This document shows, one piece after another, positions 4,771 to 51,007 of a stretch of DNA of 64,000 bases (the stretch's first letter is position 1; every line of letters starts with the position of its first letter). The notes under the pieces are model-generated. The model searched no databases and was not told the origin of the DNA. It saw only the letters and a program-made list of their open reading frames with translations. This DNA is from Cetorhinus maximus. Taxonomy: Eukaryota. The position numbers and the translations under genes are program-made. The stretch covers positions 1 to 64,000 of the forward strand of contig NW_027597516.1 in the NCBI RefSeq assembly GCF_964194155.1, read 5' to 3'.

Positions 4771-4775
<5 letters not shown>

Positions 4776-4818: not shown

Positions 4819-4832
4819 CCCCCCTCTTGTAG

Positions 4833-4948: not shown

Positions 4949-4973
4949 GTAGGACAGAGGGCAATTCTTTAAA

Positions 4974-28752: not shown

Positions 28753-29019
28753 GTAATTTCCTAATTTACAAGGAAGCAGCAGATTTTGTTTAACACTCTT
28801 AAACTGGAATGTGTGCAGAATCAATCTTTGAATATATTGCAACAAAAGGTGACTTAAAAGAAAGTATGCAGTTGTCCATTATTCTGTAAAATGTTCCTGA
28901 GATTGTTTTTAAGGACAGTTTCCCTAGCTGTTGGGGATAGGTCCAAATTGAGTAAACATAAGGGGCATTCTCAGAATGGCAGTTCCAGTCTTACTCCCTC
29001 GTGCTTTTTTTAATCTTCT

Positions 29020-29500: not shown

Positions 29501-30679
29501 TCATTTTGGGCTCAAAAGGGAATTTCCAAGAGTTTTTCCATAAAATGGCTGCGATGTTCTGTGTTTTTGTGCCTGTATCAAGGGATTGCATGGTCTGGCA
29601 GTGGATCTCTATACCCTAATCCATGAGACAGGCTTGATGGGCCTGCTGGCTTTTTCTGTGTATCTATGAAAACTTTGCTCAGTATTTGTAGAAGAGTGTA
29701 AGGGAAGTCTCGATTTTTTTTGGGGGGACTTTATCTGGAGATGAAAAGAATTAATCTAAGAGGTGGGGTTAAATGGTCAATGATAATGACAATCAGTAGA
29801 TACCTGTATTAAGGAATCAGTTCTCAAGAGGATTAGGACATTAACAAATTCAGTAGAGATGGCAGCAATAATACAGCTGTTCAAATAGGGGGAAAGGGAT
29901 AATCCAGGCAACTACTTCTGGTGAACTAGTTAGTTGTTGATTGGCTCCAATTGATTTCCTAAATTGCCTAAGTAAATGACTAGGGCATGGACTGATCAGA
30001 GATGGTCAGTGAAGAGCTGGCTAATGATGGAATTCTTTTGAGAGAATATGGAAAGCATGGGTGTGGCTGGGAGTGGGTAGGATAGGGTGGATTACACTTA
30101 TATAAATTTAAAGTATTTGACAAATTGCTGGATGGGGAACTGTTTGGCTGGGTTTAAAAAGAATATAACATTTCAAGGTTTGTTGAGCTAAGTGGACTAG
30201 CAACTCTCCTGGAGACAGAAACAGGCTACAGAAATGGGAAGATAAGTAGTAGGTGGAAAATACAGAAAGAAGTGAGGTAATAAATTTTGGAAACAGGAAC
30301 AAAGAATGCAAATACAGAGCTTGATGCTAAAATTCAGTGGGAATAGCCTGAGATTCTCCCTGTCAGATGCTCTAATCTGGATTTATTGGGATGTGTCATG
30401 TATGCTGCATTCTCATGTGGTCAAAATGGCTAAACTATTACAGCATTGAAAACTCTATGGAATAGAATATGAAAGGTCTTGGGGCTTGGTACAAAGTGGA
30501 GTTGCCTTTGAAAATAGCCTAGCTTAGCATAGGCAAGAAAGGCTGAATGGTCTCCTTTTATGTTTGAATGTCTAAAAGAAGAATAATTGACTTTGTTTAA
30601 TTTGAGTGAGTGTGCTGTGTCACTGGCTACAGATCGCCATGTTTTGTAGTTTCTTGCTCCTGAAGGCACTGTCTCAGGC

Positions 30680-31506
30680 TGTTAGGAAAATATAATAATT
30701 TTCATAATGTTATTGGAATTTATTGTAAGGTAGGAATAGTGTGTGTCTGTGTGGAACTTAATTGAATTAAAGACAGCTGGTCTGAAGGCTTTGAGGTGTC
30801 AGAAGAGAAGCTAGGTTTGAAATGTTGAATAGGTAAACATGGCTGAAGTTTTAGAATGTGAGGTATAAAGGGAAAATTTGCATTTTTAGATAAATCAGAG
30901 TAATTTGAATTTGAAAGAGGTGGTGAAATGAAAGACTTAGTCGGAAGAAGCTAAACAGTGAGTTTATTTTTACCAAAGCTCATTGATAAAATTGGTACTA
31001 TGAAAGATATTTATTATTAGCAAAGTAGAGCTGAAAAGACATATTGGGACAATGGGATTTGCATTAAGAAGGGAGAAACCTGTAAAAAGGAGATGAGGAT
31101 ATGTGTAAGAGGAAGGCATTCTAAGACTTAACAGTGTGAAAAGGCTCCAGCCTCTAAGCCTCAAGTTGCTGTCTACATGAACTGAAGTGAAGAAAACTCA
31201 CTTTGAATTTGACTGTTCAGGGTATCGTGTTATTTACCTGGATTTTTTAAAATCTCTTTTACTGTTGCCTTAACATAGTTAGATTAACTAGGAGAGCTAG
31301 GAGTTATCATAGCAGTAATTTGTAAACCTATGTATGTGCTTAAAATCATTTTTTATTAATTTAGTTTTGTAAGAAACCTATAAGACTCAGTGGTCTTATT
31401 ATTACTGAATTCAAGGCACGCATCTCGAAATAAATACAAATTGTAAAATAGTTTTGGCAGTTATTTCAAATTTCCCTCTGAGATTTGCATCTGCTGTGCC
31501 ATAACA
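30680..31506 (+). mobile_element. Solo LTR-like element inserted into a SINE
   Basis: TGTTAGG...CCATAACA inverted termini, related to 20001-20926. SINE-like sequence lies on both flanks. Confidence 0.55.
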
Positions 31507-31786
31507 AGCTTGGGAGTGAATTCTGCTGCTAATGTGCCCAAGTGACCTTGTCTGAACCTCACATTGTCTGAACCTCACAGTGATGATTAACTGGATGGGG
31601 CTGACAATTGAGCTTGATTCCGTCCTTACACACTGAACTTTGCTTCAGGAGTCACCGGCTGGTAATTGCCAATCTCTGACCCAGACACTGAGAACTGGTT
31701 GTCCCTCGTGCCGAATCAGTGACAGTCAACCCTCTCTTTCGATGTCTAAACCTTAACCTACCCTGAGACATATGAGGGATGGCCCT

Positions 31787-32734
31787 TGGGAGTGTGGAAG
31801 GTGATTCGTAGGAGTGTGGAAGGTGATTCGTAGGAGTGTGGAAGGTGATTCGTAGGAGTGTGGAAGGTGATTCGTAGGAGTGTGGAAGGTGATTCGTAGG
31901 AGTGTGGAAGGTGATTCGTAGGAGTGTGGAAGGTGATTCGTAGGAGTGTGGAAGGTGATTCATAGGAGTGTGGAAGGTGATTCATAGGAGTGTGGAAGGT
32001 GATTCATAGGAGTGTGGAAGGTGATTCATAGGAGTGTGGAAGGTGATTCATAGGAGTGTGGAAGGTGATTCATAGGAGTGTGGAAGGTGATTCATAGGAG
32101 TGTGGAAGGTGATTCATAGGAGTGTGGAAGGTGATTCATAGGAGTGTGGAAGGTGATTCATAGGAGTGTGGAAGGTGATTCATAGGAGTGTGGAAGGTGA
32201 TTCATAGGAGTGTGGAAGGTGATTCATAGGAGTGTGGAAGGTGATTCATAGGAGTGTGGAAGGTGATTCATAGGAGTGTGGAAGGTGATTCATAGGAGTG
32301 TGGAAGGTGATTCATAGGAGTGTGGAAGGTGATTCATAGGAGTGTGGAAGGTGATTCATAGGAGTGTGGAAGGTGATTCATAGGAGTGTGGAAGGTGATT
32401 CATAGGAGTGTGGAAGGTGATTCATAGGAGTGTGGAAGGTGATTCATAGGAGTGTGGAAGGTGATTCATAGGAGTGTGGAAGGTGATTCATAGGAGTGTG
32501 GAAGGTGATTCATAGGAGTGTGGAAGGTGATTCATAGGAGTGTGGAAGGTGATTCATAGGAGTGTGGAAGGTGATTCATAGGAGTGTGGAAGGTGATTCA
32601 TAGGAGTGTGGAAGGTGATTCATAGGAGTGTGGAAGGTGATTCATAGGAGTGTGGAAGGTGATTCATAGGAGTGTGGAAGGTGATTCATAGGAGTGTGGA
32701 AGGTGATTCATAGGAGTGTGGAAGGTGATTCATA
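31787..32734 (+). repeat. 22-bp minisatellite (TAGGAGTGTGGAAGGTGATTCR), about 43 copies
   Basis: Near-perfect tandem array with a period of 22 read directly. Confidence 0.97.
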
Positions 32735-32820
32735 GTAAAAGGAAATCTGTGTGACTGTAGCTAAAATTGTTCATTTTTTGTGACAAATGATTCCTGCAAT
32801 GAATTTCTCTTGTCTTTCAG

Positions 32821-33013
32821 TAATGGCCAGTACATTGTCAGTGGTTCAGATGATGGATCCTTCTTCATCTGGGAGAAAGAGACAACAAATCTTGTTCGTG
32901 TTCTGCAAGGCGACGAGTCGATTGTCAACTGTCTGCAGCCTCACCCAAAGCACTGCTTCCTCGCGACAAGTGGCATTGATCCTGTGGTTCGCCTCTGGAG
33001 CCCGAGACCAGAA
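32821..33013 (+). CDS. WDTC1: WDTC1 coding exon (C-terminal WD40)
   Basis: ttcag|T AAT GGC ... CCA GAA|gtatga. Encodes NGQYIVSGSDDGSFFIWEKETTNLVRVLQGDESIVNCLQPHPKHCFLATSGIDPVVRLWSPRPE. Confidence 0.97.
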
Positions 33014-33599
33014 GTATGAACTCTAAGTGACTGTAGACCCTGTAGTGATAGCCCTATTGGGAGAGAACAAAAGCTACCTATTAACCCAAAACTAGCCCTG
33101 AATGAGATAGCTACCTGCTGACCCAATACTATCCCAACTAAATCAATAGGACGGAGCAATTTGCCCAATTAATTCATTGGATAGGTATAGTGATGTTTGC
33201 ATTTGTGGGGTGTCCAAATATAGGGATCATAAGTACAAGATAGTCGATGCTAAATTCTGAGAGAAACTTCTTTACGCAGAGAGTGGTTAGGATGTAGAAC
33301 TTGCTACCTTATAGAGTAGTTGAGTAAATTAACATTGATGTATTTAAGGGGAAAATATATAAACACAAGAGAGGAAGGAATGAAGTTATGCTGAGGAGGG
33401 AGGTGAAGCATAAACAGAGGCATACACCAGTTGGGCTGAATTGCCTGTTCTGTGCTGTAAATTCTATGAAAAAAATTCAATTGGTCTGACCCAATGCCCT
33501 TCCTAAGTTGCCATACAATGTGTTCTATAAGTCAATGGTTTTCAAACTGTACTGCATTTTGGGAAGACTGAAGCCATTGTCTTTGGTTCCCTCCACAAA

Positions 33600-34310
33600 C
33601 TTTACTCCCTAACCAGTAACTCCATCTGTCTCCCTGGAAATTGTCTGAGGCTGAACCAGACCATTCGCAACCTAGGTGTCATACTTGTCACTGAGGTGAG
33701 TGCCTGACCACATACTGTGCCATCAGTAAGACTGCCTATTTCCACCTCTGAAATCATCTGCCTTAGCTCATCTGCTGCATGCCTTTGTTACCTATAGATT
33801 TGACCATTTCAACACACTCCTAGCTGGCCCCACACAGTTCTACCCTCCATAAACTTAGGTCATCCAAAGTTCTGCTGCCTGTGTCCTAACTTGCACCGAG
33901 TCCTCTTCACCCATCACCCCTGTACTTGCTGACCTACATTGGTTCGCAGGCAAGCAATGCCTCAGTTTTAAAATTCTCACCCTTGTTTTGAAATCCTTCT
34001 ATGTACTTACTGGCCCCTTCCTATCTCAGTAATTTCTTTCTGCCTGACAGCCCTCAGATATCTGCACTCCTCTAATTCTGGTCTCTTGCGCATCCTGACT
34101 TTAATTGGCCTGTTGTTGATGGCTATGTCTTCAGCTGCCAAGGCCCTAAATTCTGGAATTCCCTCCCCCTAAAACCTACCTCATTGGTCAAGTTTTTGGT
34201 TATCTACCCCAATACCTCCTGTGGTTTGCTGCCAAATGTTGTTTTCTGACACTTCTGTGAAGCATCTTGATGCGTTTTATTATGTTAAGGGCATCAACAA
34301 GTTGTTTTGA
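33600..34310 (+). mobile_element. L2 LINE 3' fragment
   Basis: Similar to 29020-29500 (cgcaacctaggtgtcata, accctccataaactt, ctggaattccctccc). Confidence 0.7.
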
Positions 34311-34890
34311 GTGAGGTGAAGTGGGAACAGTAAAGGCTTCCGAAATAAATTTGGTGTCAGTGGGTATCAATGATGAGCAGGAGAGAAGCTATGGGGAAGT
34401 AGTACAGAAAATGTCCTTTTTATTGAACTAAAACCTAAACTTTGACTTTTAACTTTTGTAACTGCAGGTCAGTTAATAGAGAGTGGGTCACTGGTCAGGT
34501 TTTGTTAGTTCCTTTGTAGTTTGGGACTGACTGACCCTTGAAACTACTTGAGACTGAAAGGAATGTAATTGTTCAAGCCCAGCTCAAGCTGAGCACATAT
34601 CACGGAGCGAGGCAGAGAGAGTAACTTCTGAAATGGAAATTGTACTGAGGAGGAAGGGACTGCTAAGTAGACTTACTAATTTTGTGCAAAAGGAATATAA
34701 ATTTTAAAATAAAACAAAGCAAACTTTAAAATGGCACCAGAGGAATCTTGCATGGAACATTGCATTGTACCATCAGCACACAGCACTATCACTGCTGTAC
34801 CATCCTGCCCCAGTGGTTGAGCACATGTGTTAGACTGAGGAGCTGATTAGAGCCTGGTGGGAGAGCTGATTTATGTTGTTGTTTTTCCAG

Positions 34891-35085
34891 AGTGAAGATC
34901 AAAATGAGCGAGTGATTGAAGATATGGAGGGGGCTTCACAGGCGAACCAGCGGCGAATGAATGCAGACCCACTTGAGGTCATGCTCTTGAATATGGGATA
35001 CAGGATTACTGGACTTACCAACAGCGGGATGGCCTCAGATGATGAGGAAAACTCTGAAGGCCAGGTGCAGTGCCGGCCGAGCTAA
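34891..35085 (+). CDS. WDTC1: WDTC1 final coding exon
   Basis: tccag|AGT GAA GAT ... Encodes SEDQNERVIEDMEGASQANQRRMNADPLEVMLLNMGYRITGL...GQVQCRPS followed by TAA, matching the human C-terminus. Confidence 0.97.
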   Translation, partial: SEDQNERVIEDMEGASQANQRRMNADPLEVMLLNMGYRITGLTNSGMASDDEENSEGQVQCRPS

Positions 35086-37943
35086 ACTGCAACCCCAACA
35101 ACAGCGTACTTGGGACAGACCAGGAACAACTCTCAGTTCAGTGTGTCTGTGGCTGAAAACACTGCACTGTCCTCAGCTACGCACCAAAAGCTTGGTTCAG
35201 GAAGCATTGACAGGGTTTGCATTCTTTCCAACACCTATCAGACTCACTTATGAATGAGCCCCATACCAGTCTGCAGAAGTCTCAGAGAGTGATGCTACTA
35301 CCCTCTCAGGAACAGCTAACTGGGCCAAACCTGGCCTGAATCGCATATAGGAGACTTCAAATTGTTTCTGGTGATTGGAAAAGACTCATTTGATAAGCAG
35401 ATCTTTTTGTAAATTGTCTAGATGCTGCTTTCAGTTTGTATAAATGCTTCCTCCTCTATCACATTCAGTCCCTTTGTAGTAATGGGTTCTGCACAATCCA
35501 TTAGCAACAAGCAGCCAATAATATGGAGGCAAAATGCACTCCCTTCATAGTCCTGGAGCCATCACTTAGAGTCCCAGGGCATCTTGATGCAGCTTTCATT
35601 GCAGGCAGTAGAGGGTCATGGCAGTTGTCACACCCCTCAGTCACTGCCATATTTGTGACTCCTTTGCCTGACTCTGCCCCAGTTTACAATGTTCATACAG
35701 GATGTGTAGCTAAACACGATCTAACAGAGATCTCTGCATCATCAATGGGGATGTAGGACTGTGGACACAGGATGAAATCACAATGTACATGCAGCGAGGA
35801 GACTGTCCATGGTGAAGAATGGGAGTTGTCAGGAATACTTTGTTGTGAACAATCTAGGGTGGGGTTTGCAAAGTGTAATACTGCCCTCTCCTGGAATGCT
35901 TCTTCCAGGGTGTCCTTTTACTCGGGTGTCACTAAAACTCTGCCAAGCCCCAGTCCCATCAGGAGCTCGGAATCAAATATTCCATTAGCAGAACAGATTT
36001 AAGATGAATATGGGGGGGGGAGGATTTCTTAAGTATCTTTGGTTTCTTTTGCTGGCTGTTTCTTTTTGATGACTTCTGTTGCGATGTGTGAACTAGTTTA
36101 AGTATTGAGCTATCAGCTTTGAGAAGAAGCAGCATTGCTGTTGGTAAAGCTAGAGAAGGATTGATTGGTTTAGTTCTCATTCTGATTCCTAATTTGCTGT
36201 TCAAAGTGTAGCAAATTTTGTGGGGTTTGGCTGAAAGTTGTAGTGTGAGGTAGGGGAGAATGTTTCAGTTCTGGGCAGGTTGGGGAAACACTGGGTAACT
36301 GTGTGAAAGACTGGAAAGGGAGGGAAGCAAACTGACAATGCGGTAGGAAGTAATTCAAATAGCAACAACTAACTGCAACCATTCTGTTAAACACTGACCC
36401 AAGCAATCTGAGCACTCTACCTGATTTGTAGAGTGGGTTAGCAAGCTATTGTTCTACCTCTGAAACTTGTGTTGGGATCTAATGAAGAGATGGGATTTTG
36501 CCTGCCAGTGTAAAGTTCCAGCTCGTGAAAGTTTCAGGAGGTTCCACTCAAATTGACTGAAAATGTGGCACCCAAACTGATATGTTCACAAGAGTGGCAG
36601 ATATGGGAAATGGAATGTCTTACTGACAGCAGGGGATAATGTTTTAGGGCAGAGTGCAGTGTATAAAGGAGTGCTGTTTTAAGAGGGTGTGCTATATATA
36701 AAGAGGCATGATTGTGAGGAGCTATGATGTTGTGTATAGCAGAAGGTGGGGTTAAGGTGCTGTGTATTGATTGGTTTTGCAGTGATTGATGCTACAAGTA
36801 GTCAACATTAATGATCATCTCACTTCCTGGACAAACAAATCCATAGCATGCAGAGGCTCCTCTGCTACAAGTTCTATTTGCATTTTAAGACATGTCCAGT
36901 TGCATTATACTGAATTGATGGTGAGTTTGTGTAATAGTGGTCACTTAATCCAGCTTCACTTGGAAAGATTTGTTCATCAATGTATTTTAATAGCCACTAA
37001 TTTATTGCTTTCATGAGCTGGCTGCAATCTGCAAGGCTCAGTTAGAAATTCCTCTGCCTGTGCAATAAAGGCCAAATTTGACAGGGTCAGTCACCAATCA
37101 CCTATGACTGCCCTTGCAGTTATTATACTGGGTATGCTGTGGCTGATTGATCATCTAGTTATTGATCAGTTGCTGAGAGCGTGAACTGCTAGATTATTGC
37201 AGGCTGGTGTTTCCTGAAATCCTCCCTAAGGGCTATAGCATTAGAATTCAACCAGGAGCTCATGGCTCAGTGAGGTGCCTAATCCTAGGACAGAGAGGCT
37301 GTGGTGGAGGAGCAGGCTTGATTGAAATGTTGCCAGACCCAGTGTTTCATTGCCAGCTGCTCCCACCATCAGCTATCATGCCCGTGACTACTTTGTTAAA
37401 TTACATTTTTAAAGTATAATTTAGGTTTTGGTGGGACTGTTAATAGGAAAAATTATTCCACTTAAAATCCTGCCCAATATCTTCACTGGGATTGTTGCTC
37501 ATTTGCCATTGTTTGAGTCTTGATCTGAAGCTGTAACCCCCTGTGGGGTCAGCCAGTATGTGACATGGAAAAGATCATCAGTGGGGTCAGTCAGCAGGGT
37601 TGAGTGGTGGGGTAGGTGTTTGGGTCAGTCAGTGTGCTAGATATTCCTCTGCAGTAATTGCATTCTCCCCACTCCCACCCAATTCATGAGCTCAGTGCCA
37701 ATTGCTTGTTTAAACCTCACTCAGTTTGTTGCTCCTGTCCTTGCCTGTGATTTGATGAGGAATTATCCGTGGGAAGCTGCTAACTGTAAAAATTAAATTG
37801 TTAATCCACGGTTGTGATGAGTTTAAAGCCAGCATTAAATGGCGAGTTTAGCAGAATGCTGTTTGGTTTGGTTGCTAATAATTCATACTTGTATGGGGGC
37901 TGCTGCTTTCAAGTTTGTAGTTACACTCAATGTACATCAGTGC

Positions 37944-37949
37944 AATAAA
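37944..37949 (+). terminator. Candidate distal WDTC1 polyadenylation signal (another AATAAA at 37064)
   Basis: AATAAA at the end of a roughly 2.9-kb repeat-poor stretch after the stop codon; repeats resume just after it. Confidence 0.55.
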
Positions 37950-38019
37950 AACACAAACCGCAGTACTCTGCTTGCATTCAAATATTAAACGTGCTGCACG
38001 CTCTCCAACAGCCACAATC

Positions 38020-38430
38020 TGTGCATGAGCGCTGTCACTGACCAGTGCACATCTCAGTTCGGCTTAAAATCATGGGTTTGAGTCCCACTCCAAAGACTTT
38101 AGCAGACTGATTCCATTGCAACACTGTGAAAGTGCTACACTTGCAAAAAGTGCTATCTTTCAGATGCAGTATTAAACTGAGGCACCTCCTACCTCCTCAG
38201 TTGGATGGGAAAGATCTCATGGCTACTATTGAAAGAGCAGGGGCATTCTCCTTTAGTATCCTGGCAAACATTTAGCGCTCAACCAACATCACTAAAATAG
38301 AATTACTAGGTTATTTACCCCTTTGTGTGTGGAATCTATGCACTAATTGGTAACTGCATTTCCCTACACAGCTATGGGGATGTTTTAAAGTCATAAAAGA
38401 CGCTGTCTCAATATAAAGGTCTTCCTTTTT
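38020..38430 (+). mobile_element. tRNA-derived SINE
   Basis: B-box-like GGGTTTGAGTCCC; the body is the reverse complement of the 17270-17730 family. Confidence 0.6.
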
Positions 38431-39524: not shown

Positions 39525-39530
39525 TTTATT
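39525..39530 (-). terminator. Polyadenylation signal of the TRNP1-like gene
   Basis: TTTATT on + (AATAAA on -), about 117 nt after the stop codon. Confidence 0.65.
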
Positions 39531-39646: not shown

Positions 39647-40081
39647 TCATTTTCTGGTCCAGGGGACGCAGCCGCGCAGCCCGAGGACGGCGGCCACTAT
39701 CAGCGGCGCCCGGTGTCCCCGGAATTTGAGGCGGGTTTTGATGTTCTGGCTGCGGGCGCTGAGTCCAATCTCCCCCAGCTGGGCGCCGCTCCGGATCCGG
39801 TTCACCAGCTCCCCGTGCTCCACCGCCTCCTGCTCGGCCCGGACCAGGATATCGCGCAGCTGCTGCAGGCCGATCTCCAGCTCCCGGACCCGGCGCTGCC
39901 GCCGCTCCATCTCCAGCAGCCTCCGCCGGGCTTCCGCAAACTCCAGGCCGCTGCTCGAGGTCAGGGCCCGGGACACCGGCTCGCTGGCCGGGCCCCGCTG
40001 CTCCTTCTCCCGCACCTCGCCGGCGGCTGGCGGCGAACTCGCGGCTCTTTGGCCCGACAGCTTTTCCCGGAGTTTCCCCAT
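39647..40081 (-). CDS. TRNP1: TMF1-regulated nuclear protein 1-like, single coding exon, 144 aa
   Basis: LEFAEARRRLLEMERRQRRVRELE...AAVLGLRGCVPW matches recalled human TRNP1 (LELAEARRRLLEVEGRRRLVSELE...ASALGLGGCVPW). Strong Kozak context (GCGATGG), CpG island and polyA signal. TRNP1 and WDTC1 are both at human 1p36.11. Confidence 0.88.
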   Translation of the reverse strand: MGKLREKLSGQRAASSPPAAGEVREKEQRGPASEPVSRALTSSSGLEFAEARRRLLEMERRQRRVRELEIGLQQLRDILVRAEQEAVEHGELVNRIRSGAQLGEIGLSARSQNIKTRLKFRGHRAPLIVAAVLGLRGCVPWTRK

Positions 40082-40117: not shown

Positions 40118-40240
40118 GGGCGGGGTGGGGAGGAGAGGGGTGTGTGGGCGGGGCTAGTGCGGTGGGCGGGGCTCCCGCAGTGAGTTGGACTGGTAAGGGC
40201 GGGGCTTTGTGAGGTGGGCGGGGCTAGCAGCTTGGCGGGG
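40118..40240 (-). promoter_or_regulatory. GC-box (Sp/KLF) cluster, TRNP1-like promoter
   Basis: GGGCGGGGCT four times plus further GGCGGGG copies within about 125 bp, immediately upstream of the ATG. Confidence 0.7.
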
Positions 40241-42031: not shown

Positions 42032-42161
42032 ATGATGGGCTTCGCAGAGTTTTATTTCAATGTGGACAGCGGTTACCTGGAGGGACTGGTCAGAGGGTTT
42101 AAAGGTGGGATACTGAAACAGGCGGATTTCCTCAATCTAGTGCAGTGTCAGACTCTGGAGG
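42032..42161 (+). CDS. V-ATPase V0 subunit d (ATP6V0D family) exon 1
   Basis: Encodes [43 protein letters not shown]; ends GAG G|gtgagt; 130 nt. Confidence 0.95.
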
Positions 42162-43191
42162 GTGAGTTCCTATTGAACTTTGTTTTTCCAGTTCCCTTGC
42201 TGGGAGACCAAAAGAAGGGAAAGACTTGCATTTATATAGCGAAGACAGGACACCCCATAGCGCATATTAGGTACTTTTTGAAGTGTTGTCATTGTTGTAA
42301 TGTAGAAAATGCAACAGCCAATTTGCGAGCAGCAAGCTCTCACAAACAGCAATGTGCTAATGATCAGGTAATCCATTTTTGTGATGTTGATTAGAAGATA
42401 AATATTGGTTAGAACACCGGGGATACCTCCCTTGCACTTCTTTAATACAGTGCAGTGAGGTCTTTTACATCCTCGCGAGAGGGCAAATGGGGTGTGCTCA
42501 AAGTGCAATTTTTCCCCTGTGGACCCAGCCCCTGAGTATCAGTTGGAATTGCTGTGGCTATGGTGGGGAGAGGGGGTGGGGGTGCTGGTACAGGAGTGGG
42601 GGGATTGAGGAGCGGATGGAATAGGTAGAGAATAGGGTTGGGGGTGGGGAGGTTGAGGAGGGGGAGGGTGAGTAGGGTGGATTGTCGGGGGAATCCAGGG
42701 AAGGGGAGTGGGGTGTGAAGTGGAGGGGGATATGTGGAGGAGAGGGAAGATGGGGAGGAGGGGGATGTAGGTTGAAGGGTAACCGAGCCTGCTCCTGCCT
42801 TCGCTCAGTGTCTGGCTGGGTGCAGCTTCCAGTGTGAGGGCCCAGCAAAGGCGGGAAGTAGGATCCTCAGTGATTTCCCTCTTTGGCCTGTGAGCTGACA
42901 GCAAACATGTAGCAAATGTGCCTGGTTATATTAGAGGTAGTGAGTCAAGGTGACGATTTGCTGTGGACACTGAGGTATGAGCTATTTTGATAATGGAAAT
43001 GGTGGAGCTGGAGATGTCAGTCTCCCCATTGGTTCAAAGAGTGTGGAGGTTAATCCTGGGAATTAATCGCCTCTTGCCCTCAGTCCCAGCAAGGGTTAAT
43101 AATCTTGCATTTAATAAGTGGTGTTTATCGAGCACTGTTTCGTGCAGAATAAACCCTTATCTAACCAGAGACTCGTGCTGTCTTTCTGCAG

Positions 43192-43363
43192 ACCTGAAGC
43201 TGCACCTTCAGAGTACAGACTATGGCAGCTTTCTGTCCAACGAAACTGGCCCTCTCACCGTCTCCATCATTGACGACAAACTGAAACAAAAACTGCTGGT
43301 GGAGTTTGTCTATCTGCGAAATCATTCCTTGCAGCCTCTCACCACCTTCCTGGATTATATCAC
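43192..43363 (+). CDS. ATP6V0D-family exon 2
   Basis: tgcag|AC CTG AAG ... ATC AC|gttagt. Encodes [58 protein letters not shown]; 172 nt. Confidence 0.95.
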
Positions 43364-43674
43364 GTTAGTAATCGGGGTTTTGCGTTTAGTTTATTGTCAC
43401 ATGAATATTTTGAAGAGTCAGTTGAAAGCACGTCTGAGGAAATCAGTGTTTCATTAGTAACTCAGTCACATTGCTCACTGTGTGACATTGAGAGGGTGAC
43501 AGCGTGATAGAGGGAGTGATACTGAGTGAGCGACAGTAAGTGTGAGAGTGACAGAGAGTGAATGACTGCTGGGTTACATTAGCCTGGACATTGAGTTTTG
43601 ATGTGAACTTTCCCATGGCTCCAGTTCTGTGCAGTTCAGTGTAACTTGTGCCCATTGCTTGCTCTGTTTTGAAG

Positions 43675-43853
43675 GTACAGTTACATGATTGACAACGTTA
43701 TCCTGCTGATTACTGGCACATTGCACCAGCGTCCTATCTCTGAGCTCCTTCCCAAGTGCCATCCCTTGGGCAGCTTCGAACAGATGGAGGCCGTTCACAT
43801 TGCCCAGACCCCCGCTGAACTCTACAACGCCATCCTGGTCGATACACCGTTAG
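43675..43853 (+). CDS. ATP6V0D-family exon 3
   Basis: tgaag|G TAC AGT ... TTA G|gtaaga. Encodes [59 protein letters not shown]; 179 nt. Confidence 0.95.
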
Positions 43854-43949
43854 GTAAGAGATGGACTCACGGCCCCCAGTACCGGCCAGATGGCGTTCAG
43901 CACCATCTGATCAATAGTCTGGAGCAGCTGCAATACGATGTAGGACCAT

Positions 43950-45330
43950 AGTGTACTGGTCAGTGAGGAGTATCTGTGTACTGTCAGTGCTGGGGTCCGA
44001 GTATCTGTGTATTGGTCAATGCAGGGGTCTGAGTCTCTCACTGTGTATTGGTCAGTGCAGGGGTCTGAGTGTCTCACTGTGTATTGGTCAGTGCAGGGGT
44101 CTGAATGTCTCACTGTGTACTGGTCTGGTCGGTGCAGGGGTCTGAATATCTCACTGTCTATTGGTCAGTGCAGGGGTCTGACTGTCTCACTGTGTATTGG
44201 TCAGTGCAGGGGTCTGAGTACCTGTGTACTGGTCAGTGAACTTCTCTGAATGACTTACTGTGTACTGGACAATGCAGGGGATCGAGTATCTGTGTACTGG
44301 TCAGTGCAGGGATCTGAATGTCTCACTGTGTACTGGTCAGTGCGGGGGTCTGAATGTCTCACTGTGTACTGGTCAGTGCAGGGATCTGAATGCCTCGCTG
44401 TGTATTGGTCAGTGTAGGAATCTGAGCATCTCACAGTGCAGGGGTCTGGTATCTCACTGTGTACTGGTCAGGGCAGGGGACTGAGTATCTGTGTAATAAT
44501 TAGTGAAGGGGTCTGAGTGCCTCACTGTGTATTGGTCAGTGCAAAGGTCTGAGTGTCTCGCTGTGTCCTGGTCTGTGAAGAGGTCCTAGTATCTGTGTAC
44601 GGGTCAGTGCAGGGGTCCTAGTATCTGTGTACCAATCAGTACAGGGTCTGAATGTCTTCACTGTGTACTGTCAGTGTAGGGGCTGAATGTCCCACTGTGT
44701 ACAGGTCAGTGCGAGGGTCTGAAAGTCTCACTGTGTACTGGTTAGTGTATGGGTCTGTGTCTCACTGTGTATTGGTCAGTGCAGGGTTCTGAATTCTCAC
44801 TGTGTATTGGTCAGTGCAGGGGTCTGAGTGTCTCACTGTGTATTGGTCAGTGTAGAAGTCTGTGTGTCTCATTGTGCAGGGGTCTGGTGTCTCACTGTGT
44901 ACTGGTCTGTGCAGGGGTTCGAGTATCTGTGTACTAGTCAGTGCAGGGCTCTGAATGTCGCACTATGGATTGGTCAGTGCAGGGGTCTGAATGTTTCATG
45001 GTGTACTGGTCAATGCAGGGGTCCTAGTATCTGTGTACTGGTCAGTGCAGTGGCCTTAGTATCTGTGTACGGGTTGATGCAGGGGTCCTAGTATCTGTGT
45101 ACCAATCAATACAGGGTCTGAATGTATCACTGTGTACTGGTCAGTGTACGGGTCTGTGTCTCACTGTGTACTGGTCAGTGCAGGCATCTGAGTGTCTCAC
45201 TTTGTATTGGTCAGTGTAGGGGTCTGAAGACTCACTGTGTATTGGTCAGTGTGGGATCTGAGTGTCTCACTGTGCAGGGCTCTGACTATCTCACTGTGTA
45301 TTGGTCAGTGCAGGGGTCTGACTGTCTCAT
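43950..45330 (+). repeat. Degenerate minisatellite with 36-bp (CTCACTGTGTATTGGTCAGTGCAGGGGTCTGAGTGT) and shorter variant units
   Basis: Fills most of intron 3 of the V-ATPase d gene. Confidence 0.92.
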
Positions 45331-45427
45331 ACTTGCTGAGTTACAACACAGGCCATGTGTTAGATCATAGAGCATGTCAGACTGTGTGAGTATGTTGAAC
45401 ACTCACCTGGTAATTTCCATTTCCCAG

Positions 45428-45507
45428 CTTCCTTCTTCCAAGATTGCATCTCGGAGAATGACCTTGATGAAGTCAATATTGAAATATTACGAAATAAACT
45501 CTACAAG
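45428..45507 (+). CDS. ATP6V0D-family exon 4
   Basis: cccag|CT TCC TTC ... TAC AAG|gtaaga. Encodes [27 protein letters not shown]; 80 nt. Confidence 0.95.
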
Positions 45508-46025
45508 GTAAGAACAATAAATCTGATCAGAATGCATAATTTTCTCCCAGGCATCTGTTATAAGAACAAAAAGGAATAGGGGCAGAAGTCTGCTCTATGG
45601 CTCCTCAAACCTGCTTCTTCATTCATTAAGATGATGGCTATTCTTTTACATCACCTCCAGTTACCCCTACTCTCCCCATATCCCTCGATATCAATCTATC
45701 TATCTGCTGACTGAGCAACCACAGCTCTCTGTGGTGGTGAATTCTAAGGTTTCCCAGCCCTCTGAGTGGAGAAAATTTTCTTCATCTCAGTGCTAAACGG
45801 CCAACCCCTTATCCAGAGAATAACTGTTATTTTACAGATAAACCTCACCAACCCCTCGATTAAATTTCAGCCTGTAACTCACTCCTAGGTATCTGTTATT
45901 TTACCTATAAGCCCCCCTGAAACCCTGGTGAGATTATTTTTATTTCTTTCATCAATCTGAGCAGAACCCATTGATAAATGATTTCTTGCTCACTAGCCTC
46001 AGGGTTGTCAATTTTCCTGTTTCAG

Positions 46026-46103
46026 GCTTATCTCGAATCATTTTACAGCTTCTGTAAAGAACAGGGTGGGCAGACTGAAGAAGTGATGTGTCCCATCCTG
46101 CAG
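46026..46103 (+). CDS. ATP6V0D-family exon 5
   Basis: ttcag|GCT TAT ... CTG CAG|gtaagc. Encodes [26 protein letters not shown]; 78 nt. Confidence 0.95.
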
Positions 46104-46289
46104 GTAAGCAAGTTAACCACTTCCCCCACTGTGACTGCATGTCTCTGTAAAGTGTAACTCTCGCAATCTGGCTCTGGGACTCTGGAACAATAAAGGGAAT
46201 CATTAAAATAGACATTGAACAATGAACAATCAGTGATCAATGAAGGTCAGGTTTGAGCCCAGTCAAAGGGAGTTCAGGGACCAGCAGTT

Positions 46290-48394
46290 AGGATGGGATC
46301 TGTGCAACCATTTATAGGGGTTTCCACCATTGTCACTTGATTCCAAGGGTTTCAGAGCATGTGCTATATGGTTCTAGGGTCTCTGTATGAGGACTGAGTA
46401 AGCAAGACAAATATCAAATTAACAGATTGGAAGAAATCTAATTTTGAGTGGTTGAGAATTGAAATAGGGAAGAGCAACTGGAAAAAAAATACAGAGAAGG
46501 AGTGAGAGCAGCAGTGGGAAATAGTTAAATCAGTGATCAATAGAGTGCAGCAGACATCTATTCCACTTAAAAACAAGATTCATGGATGAGTAAAAAGATG
46601 AGTCAGATTGAAAAATATCAAACACTAAGTATATGAACAACATGGGAGAGGATGACAAATAGGAATATAAAGAGGTTACAAAAGAAGTCAAAAGATGAGA
46701 ATTAAGTAACTTAAAAAGGAACTACGAAACTAAATTACTCAACAATGTAAAAAACAAAATAAAATATTCTAACAACACATAAAATTATGACAGGTTTAGA
46801 TAATGTAGACAAAGAAAAAATGTTCCCATTGGCTGATGGTACAAGGAATAGGGGACAAAGATTTAAGGTTTTGGGCAAGAGATACAGTGGAGATGTGAGG
46901 AAAACCTTTTTTTACAGTGAGTAGTAATGATCTGGAACTTGCTGCCTACAAAGGTGGTGGAAGCAGAGACGAAGAATGATTTTGAAAGGAAATTGGAAAA
47001 GCACATGAGGCAAATAACCTCGCAGGGCTGCAGGACTGAAGTAGATGAGTGGGACTGACTCGTTTTACAGACTTACGGACTTACAGAAAGCTGTCAGGGA
47101 CTTAAAGGGCCAAATGGCCTCCTTCTGTGAAATTACGGCTATGACTCCATAACTTTAAATAACAAAGGATAGGGCCACTAAGAATATACAAGCTAAACTC
47201 ACAGGTACTCTCAGCAAAATGGCAGAAATAATGAATGTCTGTCTCAGTATTTACAGGGAGCCTAACAAAGTAGGCATGACATTAGAAAAAGAGAGATAAA
47301 GACATTTTAGATTTGGGGGGGGATGATAATTGATGAACTTAAAGAGGATAAGACTCCTGGTCTGGAAGGATTGTCACTTGTAACCATGCATATTAAAATA
47401 ACTTATAGAACAGAGAGCAGAGGCACCATTACATACATATAACAATTCATTAGAAAAGGGAATAATAGCAAAGAACTGTCAGACATCTAATATTATACCT
47501 ATATTTAAAAAGGGAGATAGAACAAGCCCAGAGAACTATACAAAAGCAAAGTATTGTAGATGCTAGAAATCTGAAATCAAAATAGAAAAAGATAGAAATA
47601 CTCAGCAGGTCAGGCAGCCCCTGTAGAGAAAAGCAGAGTTAATATTTCAGGTCAATAACCGAGTATTTCCAGCATTTTCTGTTTTTATTCCAGGGAGCCG
47701 CAGACCAGTTGGGGGCCGGTTAGCTCAGTTTGCTAGATGGCTAGGATGTGATGCAGAATAACCTCAACAATATTGGTTCGATTCCTGTTCCAGCCTTTAA
47801 TAAGGTAGTAGACCCATGAGTAAGGTCAGAGCATACAAAGCCAGGGACAGGTAGCAGAATAGCTACTAAACAGAAAACAGAAAGTAGGGGTAAAAGGTGG
47901 GGAGTGGTGTTTCACAGGGACCAGTGCTGATACCACTGTTGTTCACCATTTAAGTAAATAATTTTGTCTTGCAAATCAGAAGTATAATTTCAAAATTTTC
48001 AGATGACACGAAGTTACATTGTTGTTAATACAAAAGGAGAATGCAACAAACTAGAGGAAGACATTACTAAACTTGCAAAATGGGCATGTTTTTGGCAAAT
48101 GAATTTCAATATAGACTAATGTGAGGGGGTGCATTTTGTGGGAAGATTAAGGAGGCCACATACTGATGAAAAAAAAGTGTCTAAATGGGGTAGAGAAACT
48201 GAGGGATCTGAGAGCACTAAAAATAGTGCCACATGTTAATAAGGCCATAAAAATTAAATAAAGTACTGGGGTTCATTTCTGGAAGGATAGAACTGAAAAG
48301 CAGAGAGGTTATGCTAAAGCTGTATCAAACCTTGGTTGGAACACACTTGTAGTATTGTGCCCTGTCCTGGTCTTGATATCGTAAAAAGGATATA
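46290..48394 (+). mobile_element. Decayed CR1 LINE (continues at 51011-51660) hosting several nested insertions
   Basis: RT remnants (PIFKKGDRTSPENY, SKFSDDTK, KSREVMLKLYQTLV). The reading RKDI|E..FTR is split by the Harbinger element. Confidence 0.8.
47714..47795 (+). pseudogene. tRNA-Ile-like pseudogene or isolated SINE head
   Basis: Starts GGCCGGTTAGCTCAGTT as in vertebrate tRNA-Ile(AAT) and has the B box GGTTCGATTCC. The anticodon arm is degenerate. Confidence 0.6.
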
Positions 48395-51007
48395 GGGCAG
48401 AATTTTTCGCTGAGTGGGTGGGCACGCGCCCGACCCGCTCGAGTGTAAAATAACACGTGATGATGTTGGGCGAGGGTCCTGACATCATCGCGCACTCTGC
48501 ATGATATTTCGGTCAGCTGGTGTGCGCAGGAATCGGAGCCGCGCCCGCCATCAATTACCAGGCTGGTTAAGGCCATTAAAAAGGCAATTAAGCTAGATTT
48601 TACATTGCCTGTGTGACTTTGTGCTTGTCGCACAGGCAAAATGGGCAGGCGGGCAGCCGACAATTTGCTAAACCTCATCCAAGGGCGGGATAAAAAGGGT
48701 CCACAGCATTGCCAGTGCGAGTAGTGAGGAGTTTAGGAGATAGTTTGCTGCTGGTTGCTTATTGGCACTTGACAGCTTCATCTCTGTTCAGGGCTTCATT
48801 GTTAGCATTTCCAGGCTTCAGTTCAGGACTTATTGGCGTCGCCAAGGCCCCCAGAAGATTCAGACCGTGTGGACCCTTCCAGGTGTCAAACAGCCTTCCC
48901 TTACCCTGGGAATGGGGATTGTGGTCTCTGCTGGTGGCACCTCCTCTGTGGAGGAAGAGAGGGACAGAAGGGAGAGGAGGCCAGGTGCCCCAATGCAGCT
49001 TTGAGGGGAGAGAGCAATGGGAGGAGTGGCTCAGGCACAAGGCGCGCAGGGCCAGCTGGCAGTCCAAGGTGGAAGGGGCCACAGGAGACGTCACTAACCT
49101 CCTGCCAGGGTTTACAGGCAGCGATGCAGCTACCTCAATATGTCTGAGGTGCAATGCCAAAGAAGGCTCCGCCTCTCAAGGGAGACAGTGACCTCCATTT
49201 GTCAGGTGATTGGGCCTGAGATCAGTTCCGACCGTGTGGGTGGACACTCCATGCCAGTGGCTTTGAAGGTCACGGTGGTTCTCAACTTCTTTGCCTCCAG
49301 CTCTTTCCAGGGGTCAGTTGGGGATCTGTGTGGAGTCTCCCAATCAGCTGTCCACAGTTGCATCAAGCAACTCTTTTCAGGTGACTACTGACATGAGAGT
49401 CGCCACTGTCTCAATGGAGGAGGCAGTGCGCTCGGCCATGAGGGTCAATACAGTGCACATGCTCCTCATGGACCTCCGCCAAATCCTCCTGCACATCTTG
49501 CTGGACATCCAGCATCTGCTGCCTAATGGACAACTCCAGAGGCTCAACATCTGCCTTCAACTCAGCATAGTCCTGGTCCCCAGCAGTCCTCCGACTGCTG
49601 GCGCCCTGGGCACACTCTGCCTCCAACTGCACCTCAAGCGAGTGTAAAGTGCCCTCATCAATGTGCACTGACATTCTAGCCGCCGATCTAATGCCCACCA
49701 AGGTGCTGGTATCTGCGCTGCTGCCTGGTTCAGCGAGTGGGTGTGAAACAGGTGCAAATAAAGCCCGGTGGTCCTCCTGCATCAGGGTGGCCCTTCGGTG
49801 TCCAGAGAGTGAGTGCGCGCTGGCGAATCTAAGGGAGAACAAGGACATGTCATTAGTTAAAGCCATCACACTGTCACTGTGCATGCCAGGCACCCTAGTG
49901 AGACAATGGAGATCTGCATCATGGTGCCATCATCTTTCAATGATCAGTGAGGACTGCTGGTTTGAGGCTCCCATCAACAAAGAGGCTACACTAGAATGGT
50001 TGCACAGTACAAAACTTTCACCTCTGTGTACTGCGTTCTCACCTTCATCTGGCACCCCCACCTCTCCACACCCAGTTGCACGTGGAGCGTGCCAGCTCTC
50101 TAGCTCTAGGGCATCCTGCTTGAATCTGGTGAGCAGCAGCAGGTTGAGCAGGCCTCCGCCTGTATGTGACCTCTCTGATGGGTTATGGCTTGTCTTCTCC
50201 TGAAAGGACAGAGGAGCATTGATTAGTCCACTCTCTACCTGCAGCGCCATTGCAGCCTGGCCAACCCCAGCTGAGGAACACCTCACAGGGCACATCCGAG
50301 TTGCAGCCCTTGAGCCACAAGGCACTCAGTCCAAGCAGCCAGGGCTCACCCCCTTGGCCAGCTCTGGCATCATTGACAGTTGGCACTCAGACTCTAGCAC
50401 CCGAGGTCCAGGGGGGAACGGCCAGATCTTAACACTTATGCACACTGATCCATGCCAACACTGTACTTACCCTTCCTGAGCGCAGCAGGTCATTGAACCT
50501 CTTCAGGAACTGTACCCATGTGCATTGCATCACGTCATGGCTGCTAACCTCCTCCCATGCCCACTTTGTCAGATGCGGTGGCCTCCTCTTCCCATCTCTG
50601 GGGACAATGGTGTCCTTCCTGGTGGCCACCTCCTCCAGGAGGATCACGAGGCACCCATCCAAAAAGCAGGCGGCCGAGTGCCCACCCGACCTGCCCTTCC
50701 ACCTACTGGCCCGAGCCACACTCGACTCCATCACATTAGGTAACGAGAGACAGAAGAGATGTTCTTCCATGGCAGCCTTCAAGGGGCTGTTATTATTAAA
50801 CCAGCCGCCGGGTCACTGTTGGACTCAGCAGCTGACAGACCCCCTCCCCCGCCCCGCCCTTCCCAACCAGTGAGGAGCTGCGTTTCATGCTGGGCGAGCA
50901 TTAATTGGCCCGCCAACGTGAAATCAAAGCTGGGGGCCGGTCGGGGGCAGCGACCCATTTCCCAGCCGATCCTGGACCCACCGCCTGCCAAACTGAAAAT
51001 TCTGCCC
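48395..51007. mobile_element. PIF/Harbinger DNA transposon, internally deleted
   Basis: Perfect 12-bp TIR GGGCAGAATTTT/AAAATTCTGCCC and 3-bp TSD ATA. Plus-strand HARBI1-type transposase N-terminus at 49140-49380 (RLRLSRETV..KVTVVLNFFASSSFQGSVGDLCGVSQSAV). Minus-strand Myb/SANT-like ORF at 50429-50782. Confidence 0.93.

What the first reader, a model, noticed from the sequence alone, without database searches (positions are those of the whole stretch)
39722..39919. The TRNP1-like protein looks like a barely disguised syntaxin Qa-SNARE
Seen: residues 55-120 read LLEMERRQRRVRELEIGLQQLRDILVRAEQEAVEHGELVNRIRSGAQLGEIGLSARSQNIKTRLKF. Recalled syntaxin-1A SNARE motif: [66 protein letters not shown]. 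The two align over 66 residues with no gaps (L.E.E.R, LE, L.D, GE...RI, K...K[FY]). His89 sits at the zero-layer Gln. A basic patch and a short hydrophobic stretch (PLIVAAVLGL) follow where a syntaxin has its tail anchor. The GE..RI signature is clearer here than in recalled human TRNP1 (RAESLSRL). A SNARE-like helix has been noted in mammalian TRNP1. Inference: this copy preserves an intermediate state showing that TRNP1 derives from a truncated, Habc-less, intronless (possibly retroposed) syntaxin, and it might act as a minimal or inhibitory SNARE.
Basis: partly seen in the sequence, partly recalled or inferred. Interest (0 to 1): 0.85.

Follow-up and report, generated by a model that had tools for sequence, protein, structure and literature searches.

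The report
TRNP1 is a truncated syntaxin paralog
This shark gene is the counterpart of TRNP1, a regulator of brain-cortex folding in mammals, and its conserved core is homologous to the tail end of a syntaxin membrane-fusion protein, so TRNP1 likely arose as a cut-down duplicate of an intronless vertebrate syntaxin and likely no longer drives fusion.

Summary
The 144-aa ORF (39647-40081, minus strand) is a shark TRNP1-family gene. Residues 55-120 align without gaps to Qa-SNARE motifs, with His89 at layer 0. The homology is real: a TRNP1 family profile hits Qa-SNAREs in 25 of 26 PDB matches (best E 2.5e-7), and heptad-preserving shuffles reach the observed score in at most 1 of 5000.

The best parent is not syntaxin-1. 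It is an intronless, transmembrane-less syntaxin (probably Syx21) in the same genome, which shares the motif and the hydrophobic Cys tail over 97 residues. Shark, hamster and coelacanth TRNP1 each rank it first among non-TRNP1 loci. It lies in a chromosome block paralogous to the TRNP1 region, which suggests whole-genome duplication rather than a separate retroposition. Trees favour Syx21 but do not reject STX11.

The shark copy is not the best intermediate: coelacanth, bichir, chimaera and even hamster TRNP1 are more syntaxin-like. There is no Habc domain, no transmembrane helix, a variable layer 0 and Arg at layers +6 and +8, all arguing against a fusion-driving SNARE. A SNARE-like domain in TRNP1 was already noted in print; I found the specific origin in no paper searched.

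The parts
39647..40081 (-). Single-exon ORF, 144 aa, TRNP1-family protein (P0001)
   Evidence: Orthologs 68-90% identical and named TMF-regulated nuclear protein 1-like. Best hit of hamster and coelacanth TRNP1 in G000.
39722..39919 (-). Qa-SNARE-derived motif, residues 55-120, ungapped; layers -7 to +8 read V L L L L A A H V I A G L R I R
   Evidence: one long predicted helix 42-132
39662..39949 (-). Full extent of homology to the Syx21-like syntaxin, residues 45-140 (motif, basic linker and tail), one 1-residue gap
   Evidence: HMM positions 191-287; hhalign 96.0% and 97.7%
39815..39817 (-). His89 at the SNARE zero layer (His in 12, Arg in 12, Gln in 5, Ser in 1 of 30 TRNP1 proteins)
39731..39754 (-). 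Arg110 (layer +6) and Arg117 (layer +8), where Syx21 has small residues (Ser/Thr/Ala at +6 and Ala at +8 in 20 of 20)
39650..39721 (-). Basic linker and short hydrophobic tail with invariant Cys138 (39668-39670) and Pro140; Syx21-type tail, not a transmembrane helix
39950..40081 (-). Low-confidence, poorly conserved N-terminal 44 residues in place of the Habc domain; no Habc remnant
   Evidence: (pLDDT under 50 for residues 12-36), (13 of 43 invariant, against 62 of 101 in the core)
39525..39530 (-). AATAAA polyadenylation-type signal about 120 nt after the stop codon
   Evidence: one related-species contig ends at 39513
40118..40221 (+). Five GGGCGG boxes at the edge of a CpG island (39551-40250: GC 0.70, CpG o/e 0.82); likely promoter
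   Evidence: promoter role inferred
3196..38201 (+). Convergent neighbour: 3' part of a TPR plus WD40 gene (WDTC1 by recall; single copy) and its 3' UTR
   Evidence: Pfam TPR and WD40 exons, contigs over 36.0-38.2 kb; gene name recalled
42032..53543 (+). Divergent neighbour: V-ATPase subunit d (ATP6V0D-type) gene

Best explanation
The gene is the shark member of the TRNP1 family, its conserved core is homologous to the C-terminal third of Qa.IV syntaxins, and it likely arose as a Habc-less duplicate of the intronless Syx21-type syntaxin and likely works as a non-fusogenic coiled-coil helix rather than as a fusion-driving SNARE. Shown: family membership, the ungapped SNARE-motif homology, the shared Syx21-type tail, and the absence of Habc, introns in the coding region and a transmembrane helix. 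Inferred: the duplication was one of the vertebrate whole-genome duplications; the N-terminal two thirds were deleted before cartilaginous and bony fishes split; and the freed SNARE helix, with its hydrophobic stripe kept but its zero layer and C-terminal layers altered, now binds itself or other coiled coils, as measured for mouse Trnp1. The invariant Cys138 may be S-acylated as in STX11 (untested).
For: Family: a search of 1.84 billion representatives gave 31 hits at E<=1e-3, all carrying the TRNP1 core. Of 10 looked up, 8 are named TRNP1 or TRNP1-like (chimaera, coelacanth, axolotl, frog, snake, parrot, whale, hamster) and 1 more clusters with such names. Homology: the family profile hits Qa-SNAREs in 25 of 26 PDB matches at E<=1, with no Qb, Qc or R-SNARE among them, best 2.5e-7; hhalign to Syx21 gives 97.7%, E 1.4e-12 over 106 columns; controls. 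Parent: in the 4-Gb genome the best non-TRNP1 locus is the Syx21-like ORF for shark (E 0.011), hamster (1.3e-3, then STX11 0.19) and coelacanth (4e-8, then STX11 4.8e-5, STX19 0.024). A TRNP1 tail profile scores Syx21 tails at median 6.5 bits (91 of 92 scored), against STX2 1.45, STX19 0.0 and STX11 -1.8. TRNP1 joins Syx21 in all 4 ML trees that held both, with support 89/99, 93/74, 94/89 and 83/78, plus 90/80 in a reduced set. Gene structure: the Syx21-like, STX11 and STX19 genes are single coding exons, whereas the STX1-4-type genes are split at the zero layer. Paralogy: the Syx21-like gene lies on C8 between T-box (99.17 Mb) and TENT5 (99.46) on one side and SH3BGR (100.6) on the other; C5 and C16 carry the same three families; C22 carries SH3BGR with NUDC, KDF1 and an NHE1-type exchanger, the human TRNP1 neighbourhood by recall. 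Non-fusogenic. The mouse Trnp1 coiled coil alone forms 0.5-2 MDa assemblies (PMC7429739, passages).
Against: No TRNP1+Syx21 branch reached the starred threshold, and long branches meet there. AU tests do not reject TRNP1+STX11 (p 0.205, 0.161, 0.221) or TRNP1+STX19 (0.175, 0.112), and reject TRNP1+STX1-4 in only 1 of 3 tests (0.086, 0.213, 0.032). Within the motif, raw identity to STX11 equals or exceeds that to Syx21 for 15 of 16 TRNP1 rows. Sampling was lopsided: 95 Syx21 against 6 STX11 and 2 STX19, the last two from sharks only. The shark-weighted profile found no full syntaxin at E<=1e-3 among 1.84 billion proteins, and Pfam sees no SNARE. The scaffold is unplaced: it does not overlap the 400 kb of C22 read, the exchanger is followed there by a mannosidase gene, and only 3 TENT5 genes were found, so the link to C22 rests on recalled human gene order. 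Its two direct neighbours have no detected paralog near Syx21. One Syx21 of 20 also has His at layer 0, so His alone does not exclude SNARE activity. The shark lacks the N-terminal peptide that mouse Trnp1 needs for proliferation and phase separation, so mouse data may not transfer.
Confidence: 0.6

Rival explanations
1. Same truncated-syntaxin origin, but the sister gene is STX11, its expected partner from the second genome duplication; the tail shared with Syx21 is then an ancestral state that STX11 and STX19 lost.
For: Motif identity to STX11 is equal or higher for 15 of 16 TRNP1 rows. AU never rejects it. Without Syx21, TRNP1 joins STX11 at 55/62. Human 1p36 and 6q are paired paralogous blocks (recalled).
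Against: The tail profile favours Syx21. Genome-wide ranks put Syx21 first for 3 of 3 queries. STX11 lies on C14, and none of the 3 TENT5 or 6 SH3BGR matches is on C14. STX11 and STX19 share a different Cys-rich tail with each other.
Confidence: 0.22
2. In fishes the protein is still a membrane-bound decoy Qa-SNARE: anchored by S-acylation at Cys138, it would pair with SNAP-23/25 and VAMP through its intact N-terminal layers and stall fusion because the C-terminal layers cannot zip. This is compatible with either origin.
For: Layers -7 to -3 and +1 to +3 are hydrophobic or small. Cys138 and Pro140 are invariant in 29 of 29 aligned proteins. STX11 is held on membranes by S-acylation of its Cys tail (PMC4049605, abstract). 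The shark protein ends 3 residues after the Cys-x-Pro-Trp and lacks the mammalian N-terminal peptide and C-terminal extension.
Against: The zero layer varies among His, Arg, Gln and Ser, and the -3 Phe is lost in 5 of 5 elasmobranchs, which is unexpected under SNARE-pairing constraint. There is only 1 Cys against 3-6 in Syx21, STX11 and STX19 tails. The same tail persists in mammalian TRNP1, which is nuclear.
Confidence: 0.25
3. TRNP1 is an independent retrocopy of a spliced syntaxin-1 to -4 mRNA, 5'-truncated at insertion.
For: It is intronless and lacks the 5' two thirds, as retrocopies often do. PDB top hits are syntaxin-1. AU does not reject it in 2 of 3 tests.
Against: No STX11, STX19 or Syx21 chain appeared in the PDB searches, so those ranks do not compare parents. 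The family HMM scores Syx21 (median 44.3) and STX11 (39.4) above STX2 (37.8), the STX1 type (32.3) and the STX4 type (26.6), the last two as motif-only rows. The tail is of Syx21 type, not a 26-residue transmembrane helix. AU rejects it with slow-evolving rows only (p 0.032).
Confidence: 0.06
4. The resemblance is convergence of a generic coiled coil.
For: No Pfam SNARE hit. The single shark sequence gives only E 0.02 in PDB. Foldseek finds nothing.
Against: Heptad-preserving shuffles and slid registers fail. 25 of 26 PDB hits are Qa-SNAREs among 177,635 sequences. The match continues into the non-coiled tail.
Confidence: 0.02

Closest known systems
TRNP1 (TMF-regulated nuclear protein 1) of mammals; 'TRNP1-like' gene models of cartilaginous fishes
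   Same: Same ~100-residue core with helix, basic patch and Leu-Gly-Leu...Cys-x-Pro-Trp tail; single coding exon; best hit in G000 for hamster TRNP1 (E 1.3e-11). A predicted coiled-coil SNARE domain at dog residues 110-171 is mentioned in PMC10647097 (passages).
   Different: 144 aa against 215-232 aa. Lacks the amniote N-terminal peptide and the C-terminal disordered extension. His rather than Arg at layer 0, Leu rather than Phe at -3. Lies between a WDTC1-type and an ATP6V0D-type gene.
The third intronless vertebrate syntaxin, probably 'syntaxin 21' (PMC6143360 names STX19 and STX21 as vertebrate paralogs of STX11; NCBI labels these proteins syntaxin-1A/1B/3-like). The assignment of the name is my inference.
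   Same: Motif, basic linker and hydrophobic Cys tail align over 97 residues with one gap; single coding exon; no true transmembrane helix.
   Different: Syx21 keeps the N-peptide, Habc (Pfam PF00804), the zero-layer Gln (19 of 20), small residues at +6 and +8, and 3-5 tail cysteines in the two tails counted; 293 aa.
Syntaxin-11 and syntaxin-19 (S-acylated Qa.IV SNAREs without a transmembrane helix)
   Same: Intronless coding region, no transmembrane helix, motif homology (21-35% identity in shark and coelacanth rows).
   Different: Full Habc; a different, Cys-rich tail that the TRNP1 tail profile does not recognise.
Syntaxin-1A (neuronal Qa-SNARE)
   Same: Ungapped 66-residue register; GE..RI after the zero layer.
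   Different: Spliced gene with an intron at the zero layer in this genome's STX1-4-type copies, Habc, a long transmembrane helix and Gln at layer 0.

Membership tests
TRNP1 family | Sequence homology of the central helix and tail to named TRNP1 proteins | tested here: met
   Atlas cluster 'TMF1 regulated nuclear protein 1' at 0.93 for an ortholog
TRNP1 family | Conserved genomic position (human KDF1-TRNP1-TENT5B-SLC9A1-WDTC1 block, recalled) | tested here: inconclusive
   A WDTC1-type gene is adjacent; the scaffold is unplaced, and KDF1 and the exchanger are on C22
TRNP1 family | Mammalian N-terminal 16-residue peptide needed for phase separation and proliferation (PMC7429739) | tested here: not met
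   The shark N-terminus is unlike that of whale and reptile TRNP1
TRNP1 family | Nuclear localisation and self-association | not testable with these tools
Syntaxin (Qa-SNARE) | Qa-type SNARE motif by homology and register | tested here: met
   below the Pfam PF05739 threshold
Syntaxin (Qa-SNARE) | Gln at the zero layer | tested here: not met
   His89; Gln in only 5 of 30 family members
Syntaxin (Qa-SNARE) | Phe at layer -3 (Qa hallmark, recalled; Phe in all 31 syntaxin rows) | tested here: not met
   Leu79 in the shark; Phe in 21 of 30 TRNP1 proteins
Syntaxin (Qa-SNARE) | Small or hydrophobic residues in the C-terminal layers | tested here: not met
   Arg at +6 and +8, Gly at +4
Syntaxin (Qa-SNARE) | N-terminal Habc three-helix bundle and N-peptide | tested here: not met
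   No score above 0 bits for 11 N-termini or the upstream frames on the Syx21 HMM; no PF00804 hit
Syntaxin (Qa-SNARE) | C-terminal membrane anchor (transmembrane helix or S-acylated Cys cluster) | tested here: inconclusive
   11 uncharged residues, mean hydropathy 1.15 against 3.33 for STX2; one invariant Cys; acylation untested
Syntaxin (Qa-SNARE) | Forms a four-helix bundle with SNAP-25-type and VAMP-type SNAREs and drives fusion | not testable with these tools
   No partner sequences in one piece; no complex was folded
STX11/STX19/STX21 intronless clade (by descent) | Groups with the clade in a tree, single coding exon, paralogous chromosome block | tested here: inconclusive
   Single exon met; trees favour it but do not prove it; paralogy partly recalled

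The most novel reading that the evidence does not exclude
TRNP1 is the missing fourth genome-duplication copy of the STX11/STX19/STX21 syntaxins. In fishes it is still a lipid-anchored decoy SNARE that binds SNAP-23/25 and stalls fusion, and amniotes later added an N-terminal peptide and disordered tails that turned it into a nuclear condensate organiser controlling neural stem cells and cortical folding.
Probability: 0.2. Interest if true: 0.8.

Novelty: new variant of a known kind. Interest (0 to 1): 0.55.

Why it matters
TRNP1 is a much-studied regulator of neural stem cells and cortical folding. The papers I read treat it as a low-complexity coiled-coil protein with poor non-mammalian matches and no stated origin. 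These results give it a likely parent and a date before the shark/bony-fish split, plus a graded series (coelacanth, bichir, chimaera, shark, amphibian, amniote) from syntaxin-like to derived. That makes two open questions testable: what its coiled coil and invariant Cys-x-Pro-Trp tail bind, and when the nuclear role was gained. It would be a clear case of a membrane-fusion protein fragment co-opted into nuclear regulation. The surprise is tempered because a SNARE-like domain in TRNP1 was already predicted in passing and automated annotation names two shark orthologs t-SNARE-domain proteins.

Tried and rejected
Pfam: no SNARE or Syntaxin hit for the ORF, its 7 aligned orthologs or 30 family members. 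The PF05739 and PF00804 genome searches did not list the window.

Structure: AlphaFold gave one long helix (pTM 0.40) and Foldseek found nothing at E<=1e-3, which is uninformative for a single helix. Atlas feature hits to SNARE clusters were 0.80-0.86 and its structure rows were under the naming bar, so they are leads only.

Expression: no RNA holder was listed. Contigs of 4 related-organism runs guessed to be RNA cover the ORF as unspliced pieces within 39513-40118, with no cover over 38556-39407; this is only a weak hint.

Placement: I tried to put scaffold C1458 into the gap at C22:80.233 Mb. There is no unique overlap, only low-complexity G-rich repeats. TMEM222 is on another small contig. 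Direct neighbours of the Syx21-like gene were not identified: none of the 101 candidate frames from C8:99.74-99.94 Mb that I scanned (of 132) hit Pfam, and the 78 scanned from 99.94-100.02 Mb gave two non-informative hits. On C22 I scanned 150 of 280 candidates from 80.16-80.36 Mb and 92 plus-strand candidates from 80.36-80.56 Mb.

Trees: the first used columns fitted to the Syx21 HMM and is biased; later trees used ungapped or MAFFT columns. The layer table was off by one residue and is replaced. A remnant syntaxin N-peptide (coelacanth TRNP1 starts Met-Lys-Asp) was considered, but the HMM gives no support. A bacterial promoter scan was irrelevant. Earlier scan findings: nothing by sequence, nothing on TRNP1 by words. 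The paper that I recall defining Syx21 (Kloepper et al. 2008) was not held.

Full report
OBSERVATION. The window is shark DNA, an unplaced 77-kb scaffold (G000:C1458). A CpG island holds a minus-strand ORF at 39647-40081 of 144 aa. Seven elasmobranch relatives are 68-90% identical and mostly named TMF-regulated nuclear protein 1-like; UniRef names two orthologs t-SNARE coiled-coil homology domain proteins. They align without gaps to a syntaxin-1-type motif read from this genome, with 15 of 66 identities and His89 on the zero-layer Gln. The core is conserved: 62 of 101 positions are invariant in 8 elasmobranchs, against 13 of 43 in the N-terminus.

IS IT MORE THAN A COILED COIL? Pfam sees no SNARE, and the single sequence gives E 0.02 against PDB syntaxin. 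A deeper search returned 31 proteins at E<=1e-3 among 1.84 billion, all with the TRNP1 core and none a full syntaxin. Ten were looked up: 8 are named TRNP1 or TRNP1-like from chimaera to hamster, 1 clusters with such names and 1 is uncharacterised. A profile of 29 family members hits Qa-SNAREs in 25 of 26 PDB matches at E<=1, 14 of them below 1e-3 (best 2.5e-7), with syntaxin-1 above syntaxin-7 and -13 and no other SNARE class. Coelacanth TRNP1 alone reaches 2.6e-6 and hamster TRNP1 2.1e-3. Heptad-preserving shuffles reach the observed score in 0-1 of 5000 in each of 15 comparisons, and only 1 of 29 registers scores positive. The homology is real and specific to Qa-SNAREs.

WHICH SYNTAXIN? The best non-self hit of the ORF in its own 4-Gb genome is an uninterrupted 293-aa syntaxin on C8. 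The genome has two more single-exon syntaxins, named STX11 (C14) and STX19 (C16). The C8 protein has 94 close relatives from sharks, coelacanth, lungfish, amphibians, reptiles, birds, a marsupial and ray-finned fishes; a 95th hit is a syntaxin-2. PMC6143360 (passages) lists STX19 and STX21 as vertebrate paralogs of STX11, so I call it Syx21; that name is inferred, not matched to a reference sequence. An HMM of these 95 proteins aligns TRNP1 over 97 residues with one gap, through the motif, the basic linker and the tail (26.0 bits; shuffles at most 8.0). Profile against profile gives 97.7%, E 1.4e-12. Hamster and coelacanth TRNP1, searched against the whole genome, rank the window gene first, then Syx21, then STX11. 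A profile of the TRNP1 tail alone scores Syx21 tails at median 6.5 bits, STX2 1.45, STX19 0.0 and STX11 -1.8.

TREES. TRNP1 is monophyletic (100/100) on a long stem and joins Syx21 with 89/99 (biased columns), 93/74 (75 ungapped columns), 90/80 (23 rows), 94/89 (with tail) and 83/78 (slow rows). None is starred, and the tool warns that long branches meet. AU tests do not reject STX11 (p 0.16-0.22) or STX19 (0.11-0.18) as sister, and reject STX1-4 once in three (0.032). Motif identity to STX11 equals or exceeds that to Syx21 in 15 of 16 rows. STX11 and STX19 were sampled from sharks only. Descent from a Qa.IV syntaxin is firm, the intronless clade is likely, and Syx21 is preferred but not proven.

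GENE STRUCTURE AND POSITION. The STX1-4-type genes of this genome have an intron at the zero layer. TRNP1, Syx21, STX11 and STX19 have none, so TRNP1 needs no retroposition of its own. An AATAAA lies about 120 nt after the stop. Syx21 sits at C8:99.98 Mb with T-box (99.17), TENT5 (99.46) and SH3BGR (100.6) genes. C5 and C16 carry the same three families, C16 also STX19, and C22 carries SH3BGR (78.8) with NUDC, KDF1 and an NHE1-type exchanger (80.18-80.28). By recalled human gene order, C22 is the TRNP1-TENT5B-SLC9A1-WDTC1 region and C8 is the TBX22-TENT5D-SH3BGRL region. The window's convergent neighbour is a single-copy TPR plus WD40 gene that I recognise as WDTC1 (name recalled), and its divergent neighbour is a V-ATPase d gene. 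This fits four intronless syntaxin-derived genes on paralogous chromosomes. The limits are that the scaffold could not be placed, the fourth TENT5 was not found, a mannosidase gene rather than WDTC1 follows the exchanger on C22, and neither direct neighbour has a paralog near Syx21.

IS THE SHARK COPY AN INTERMEDIATE? Only locally. On the Syx21 HMM the scores are coelacanth 54.4, bichir 49.7, chimaera 41.9, hamster 35.6, whale 32.1 and this shark 25.8 bits. The -3 Phe is kept in 21 of 30 TRNP1 proteins but is Leu in 5 of 5 elasmobranchs. Layer 0 is His in 12 (fishes), Arg in 12 (mostly amniotes), Gln in 5 (frog type) and Ser in 1. The short coelacanth and chimaera proteins (147 and 157 aa) show that Habc was lost before cartilaginous and bony fishes split; no Habc remnant is detectable.

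HOW IT LIKELY WORKS. The model is a disordered N-terminus followed by one helix, residues 42-132. Layers -7 to +3 keep a hydrophobic stripe, but +4 is Gly and +6 and +8 are Arg, where Syx21 has small residues in 20 of 20. The tail has 11 uncharged residues, too few for a transmembrane helix, and one Cys that is invariant in 29 of 29 proteins. By established SNARE mechanism, fusion needs C-terminal zippering next to an anchor, so a fusion-driving role is unlikely (inference). Mouse Trnp1 is nuclear, its coiled coil self-assembles into 0.5-2 MDa species, its C-terminal part retains it in the nucleus, and its first 16 residues are needed for proliferation (PMC7429739, passages). The shark protein lacks that peptide. 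I therefore read it as a SNARE-derived coiled-coil binding helix (0.6 for origin and function together). A lipid-anchored decoy SNARE is the main functional rival (0.25), since STX11 is anchored by S-acylation (PMC4049605, abstract). Binding was not tested.

WHAT IS KNOWN. PMC10647097 (passages) mentions a predicted SNARE domain in dog TRNP1, never names syntaxin, and reports poor identity to non-mammalian sequences. PMC7429739 and PMC10032658 contain neither 'SNARE' nor 'syntaxin'. Searches for TRNP1 with SNARE (3 papers), with syntaxin (3 papers, listing only, incidental mentions), with evolution, with fish and ohnolog terms, with mammalian-specific and with Qa-/t-SNARE and paralog, and for syntaxin 21, showed no paper on this origin. 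The library lacks most subscription papers; I did not see Volpe 2006, Stahl 2013 or Kloepper 2008, I read no supplements, and gene-tree databases were not checked. PMC2639358 and PMC11558946 (passages) added nothing on TRNP1's origin.

VERDICT. Observation confirmed and interpretation partly supported. This is a known gene with a SNARE-like domain already hinted at; the likely parent, the timing and the graded series appear undescribed. New variant of a known kind, interest 0.55.

Noticed in passing
window:42032-53543 (+): A V-ATPase subunit d gene starts about 1.95 kb from the TRNP1 start codon, head to head. Only two such loci were found in G000 (this one and C6:99.47 Mb). By recall mammals have no such gene beside TRNP1, so it may be a paralog they lost.
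   Followed up: partly
G000:C8:99.976 Mb (L002:1483-2364, -): An intact single-exon syntaxin (probably Syx21), conserved from sharks to a marsupial but labelled syntaxin-1A/1B/3-like by NCBI. No placental mammal appeared among its 95 hits, and my search for its name found one paper mentioning it in vertebrates.
   Followed up: yes
P0159-P0163: A derived TRNP1 subgroup (one member named from a frog) has Gln at the SNARE zero layer, a shortened tail and, in most, a long Ser/Pro-rich N-terminus.
   Followed up: partly
P0031: One ray Syx21 also has His instead of Gln at the zero layer.
   Followed up: no
P0148, P0150, P0151: The Met-Pro-Gly-Cys start of mammalian TRNP1 is also seen in reptile-type proteins but not in fishes or amphibians, which suggests an amniote addition.
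   Followed up: no
G000:C22:80.18-80.49 Mb: Order NUDC, KDF1, assembly gap, NHE1-type exchanger, GH47 mannosidase. Only 3 TENT5 genes were found in the assembly, so the fourth may lie in the gap.
   Followed up: partly
window:31789-32735, 43947-45330, 54298-55841, 41137-41567: Intronic or intergenic tandem arrays; the first has a 66-bp unit with 95-99% identity between copies.
   Followed up: no
window:13867-16607; L046:6203-6667: Degenerate LINE endonuclease and reverse-transcriptase fragments, and an LTR-element integrase fragment just beyond the window.
   Followed up: no
L046:8700-9100 (scaffold position about 72.8 kb): A GC-rich stretch ending in ATG followed by a splice-donor-like sequence, probably the first exon of a further gene on the + strand.
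   Followed up: no
P0166, P0146: One database protein joins a teleost TRNP1 N-half to a bacterial response-regulator domain, and another holds a tandem duplicate of a bird TRNP1 core; both are probably assembly or gene-model artefacts.
   Followed up: no
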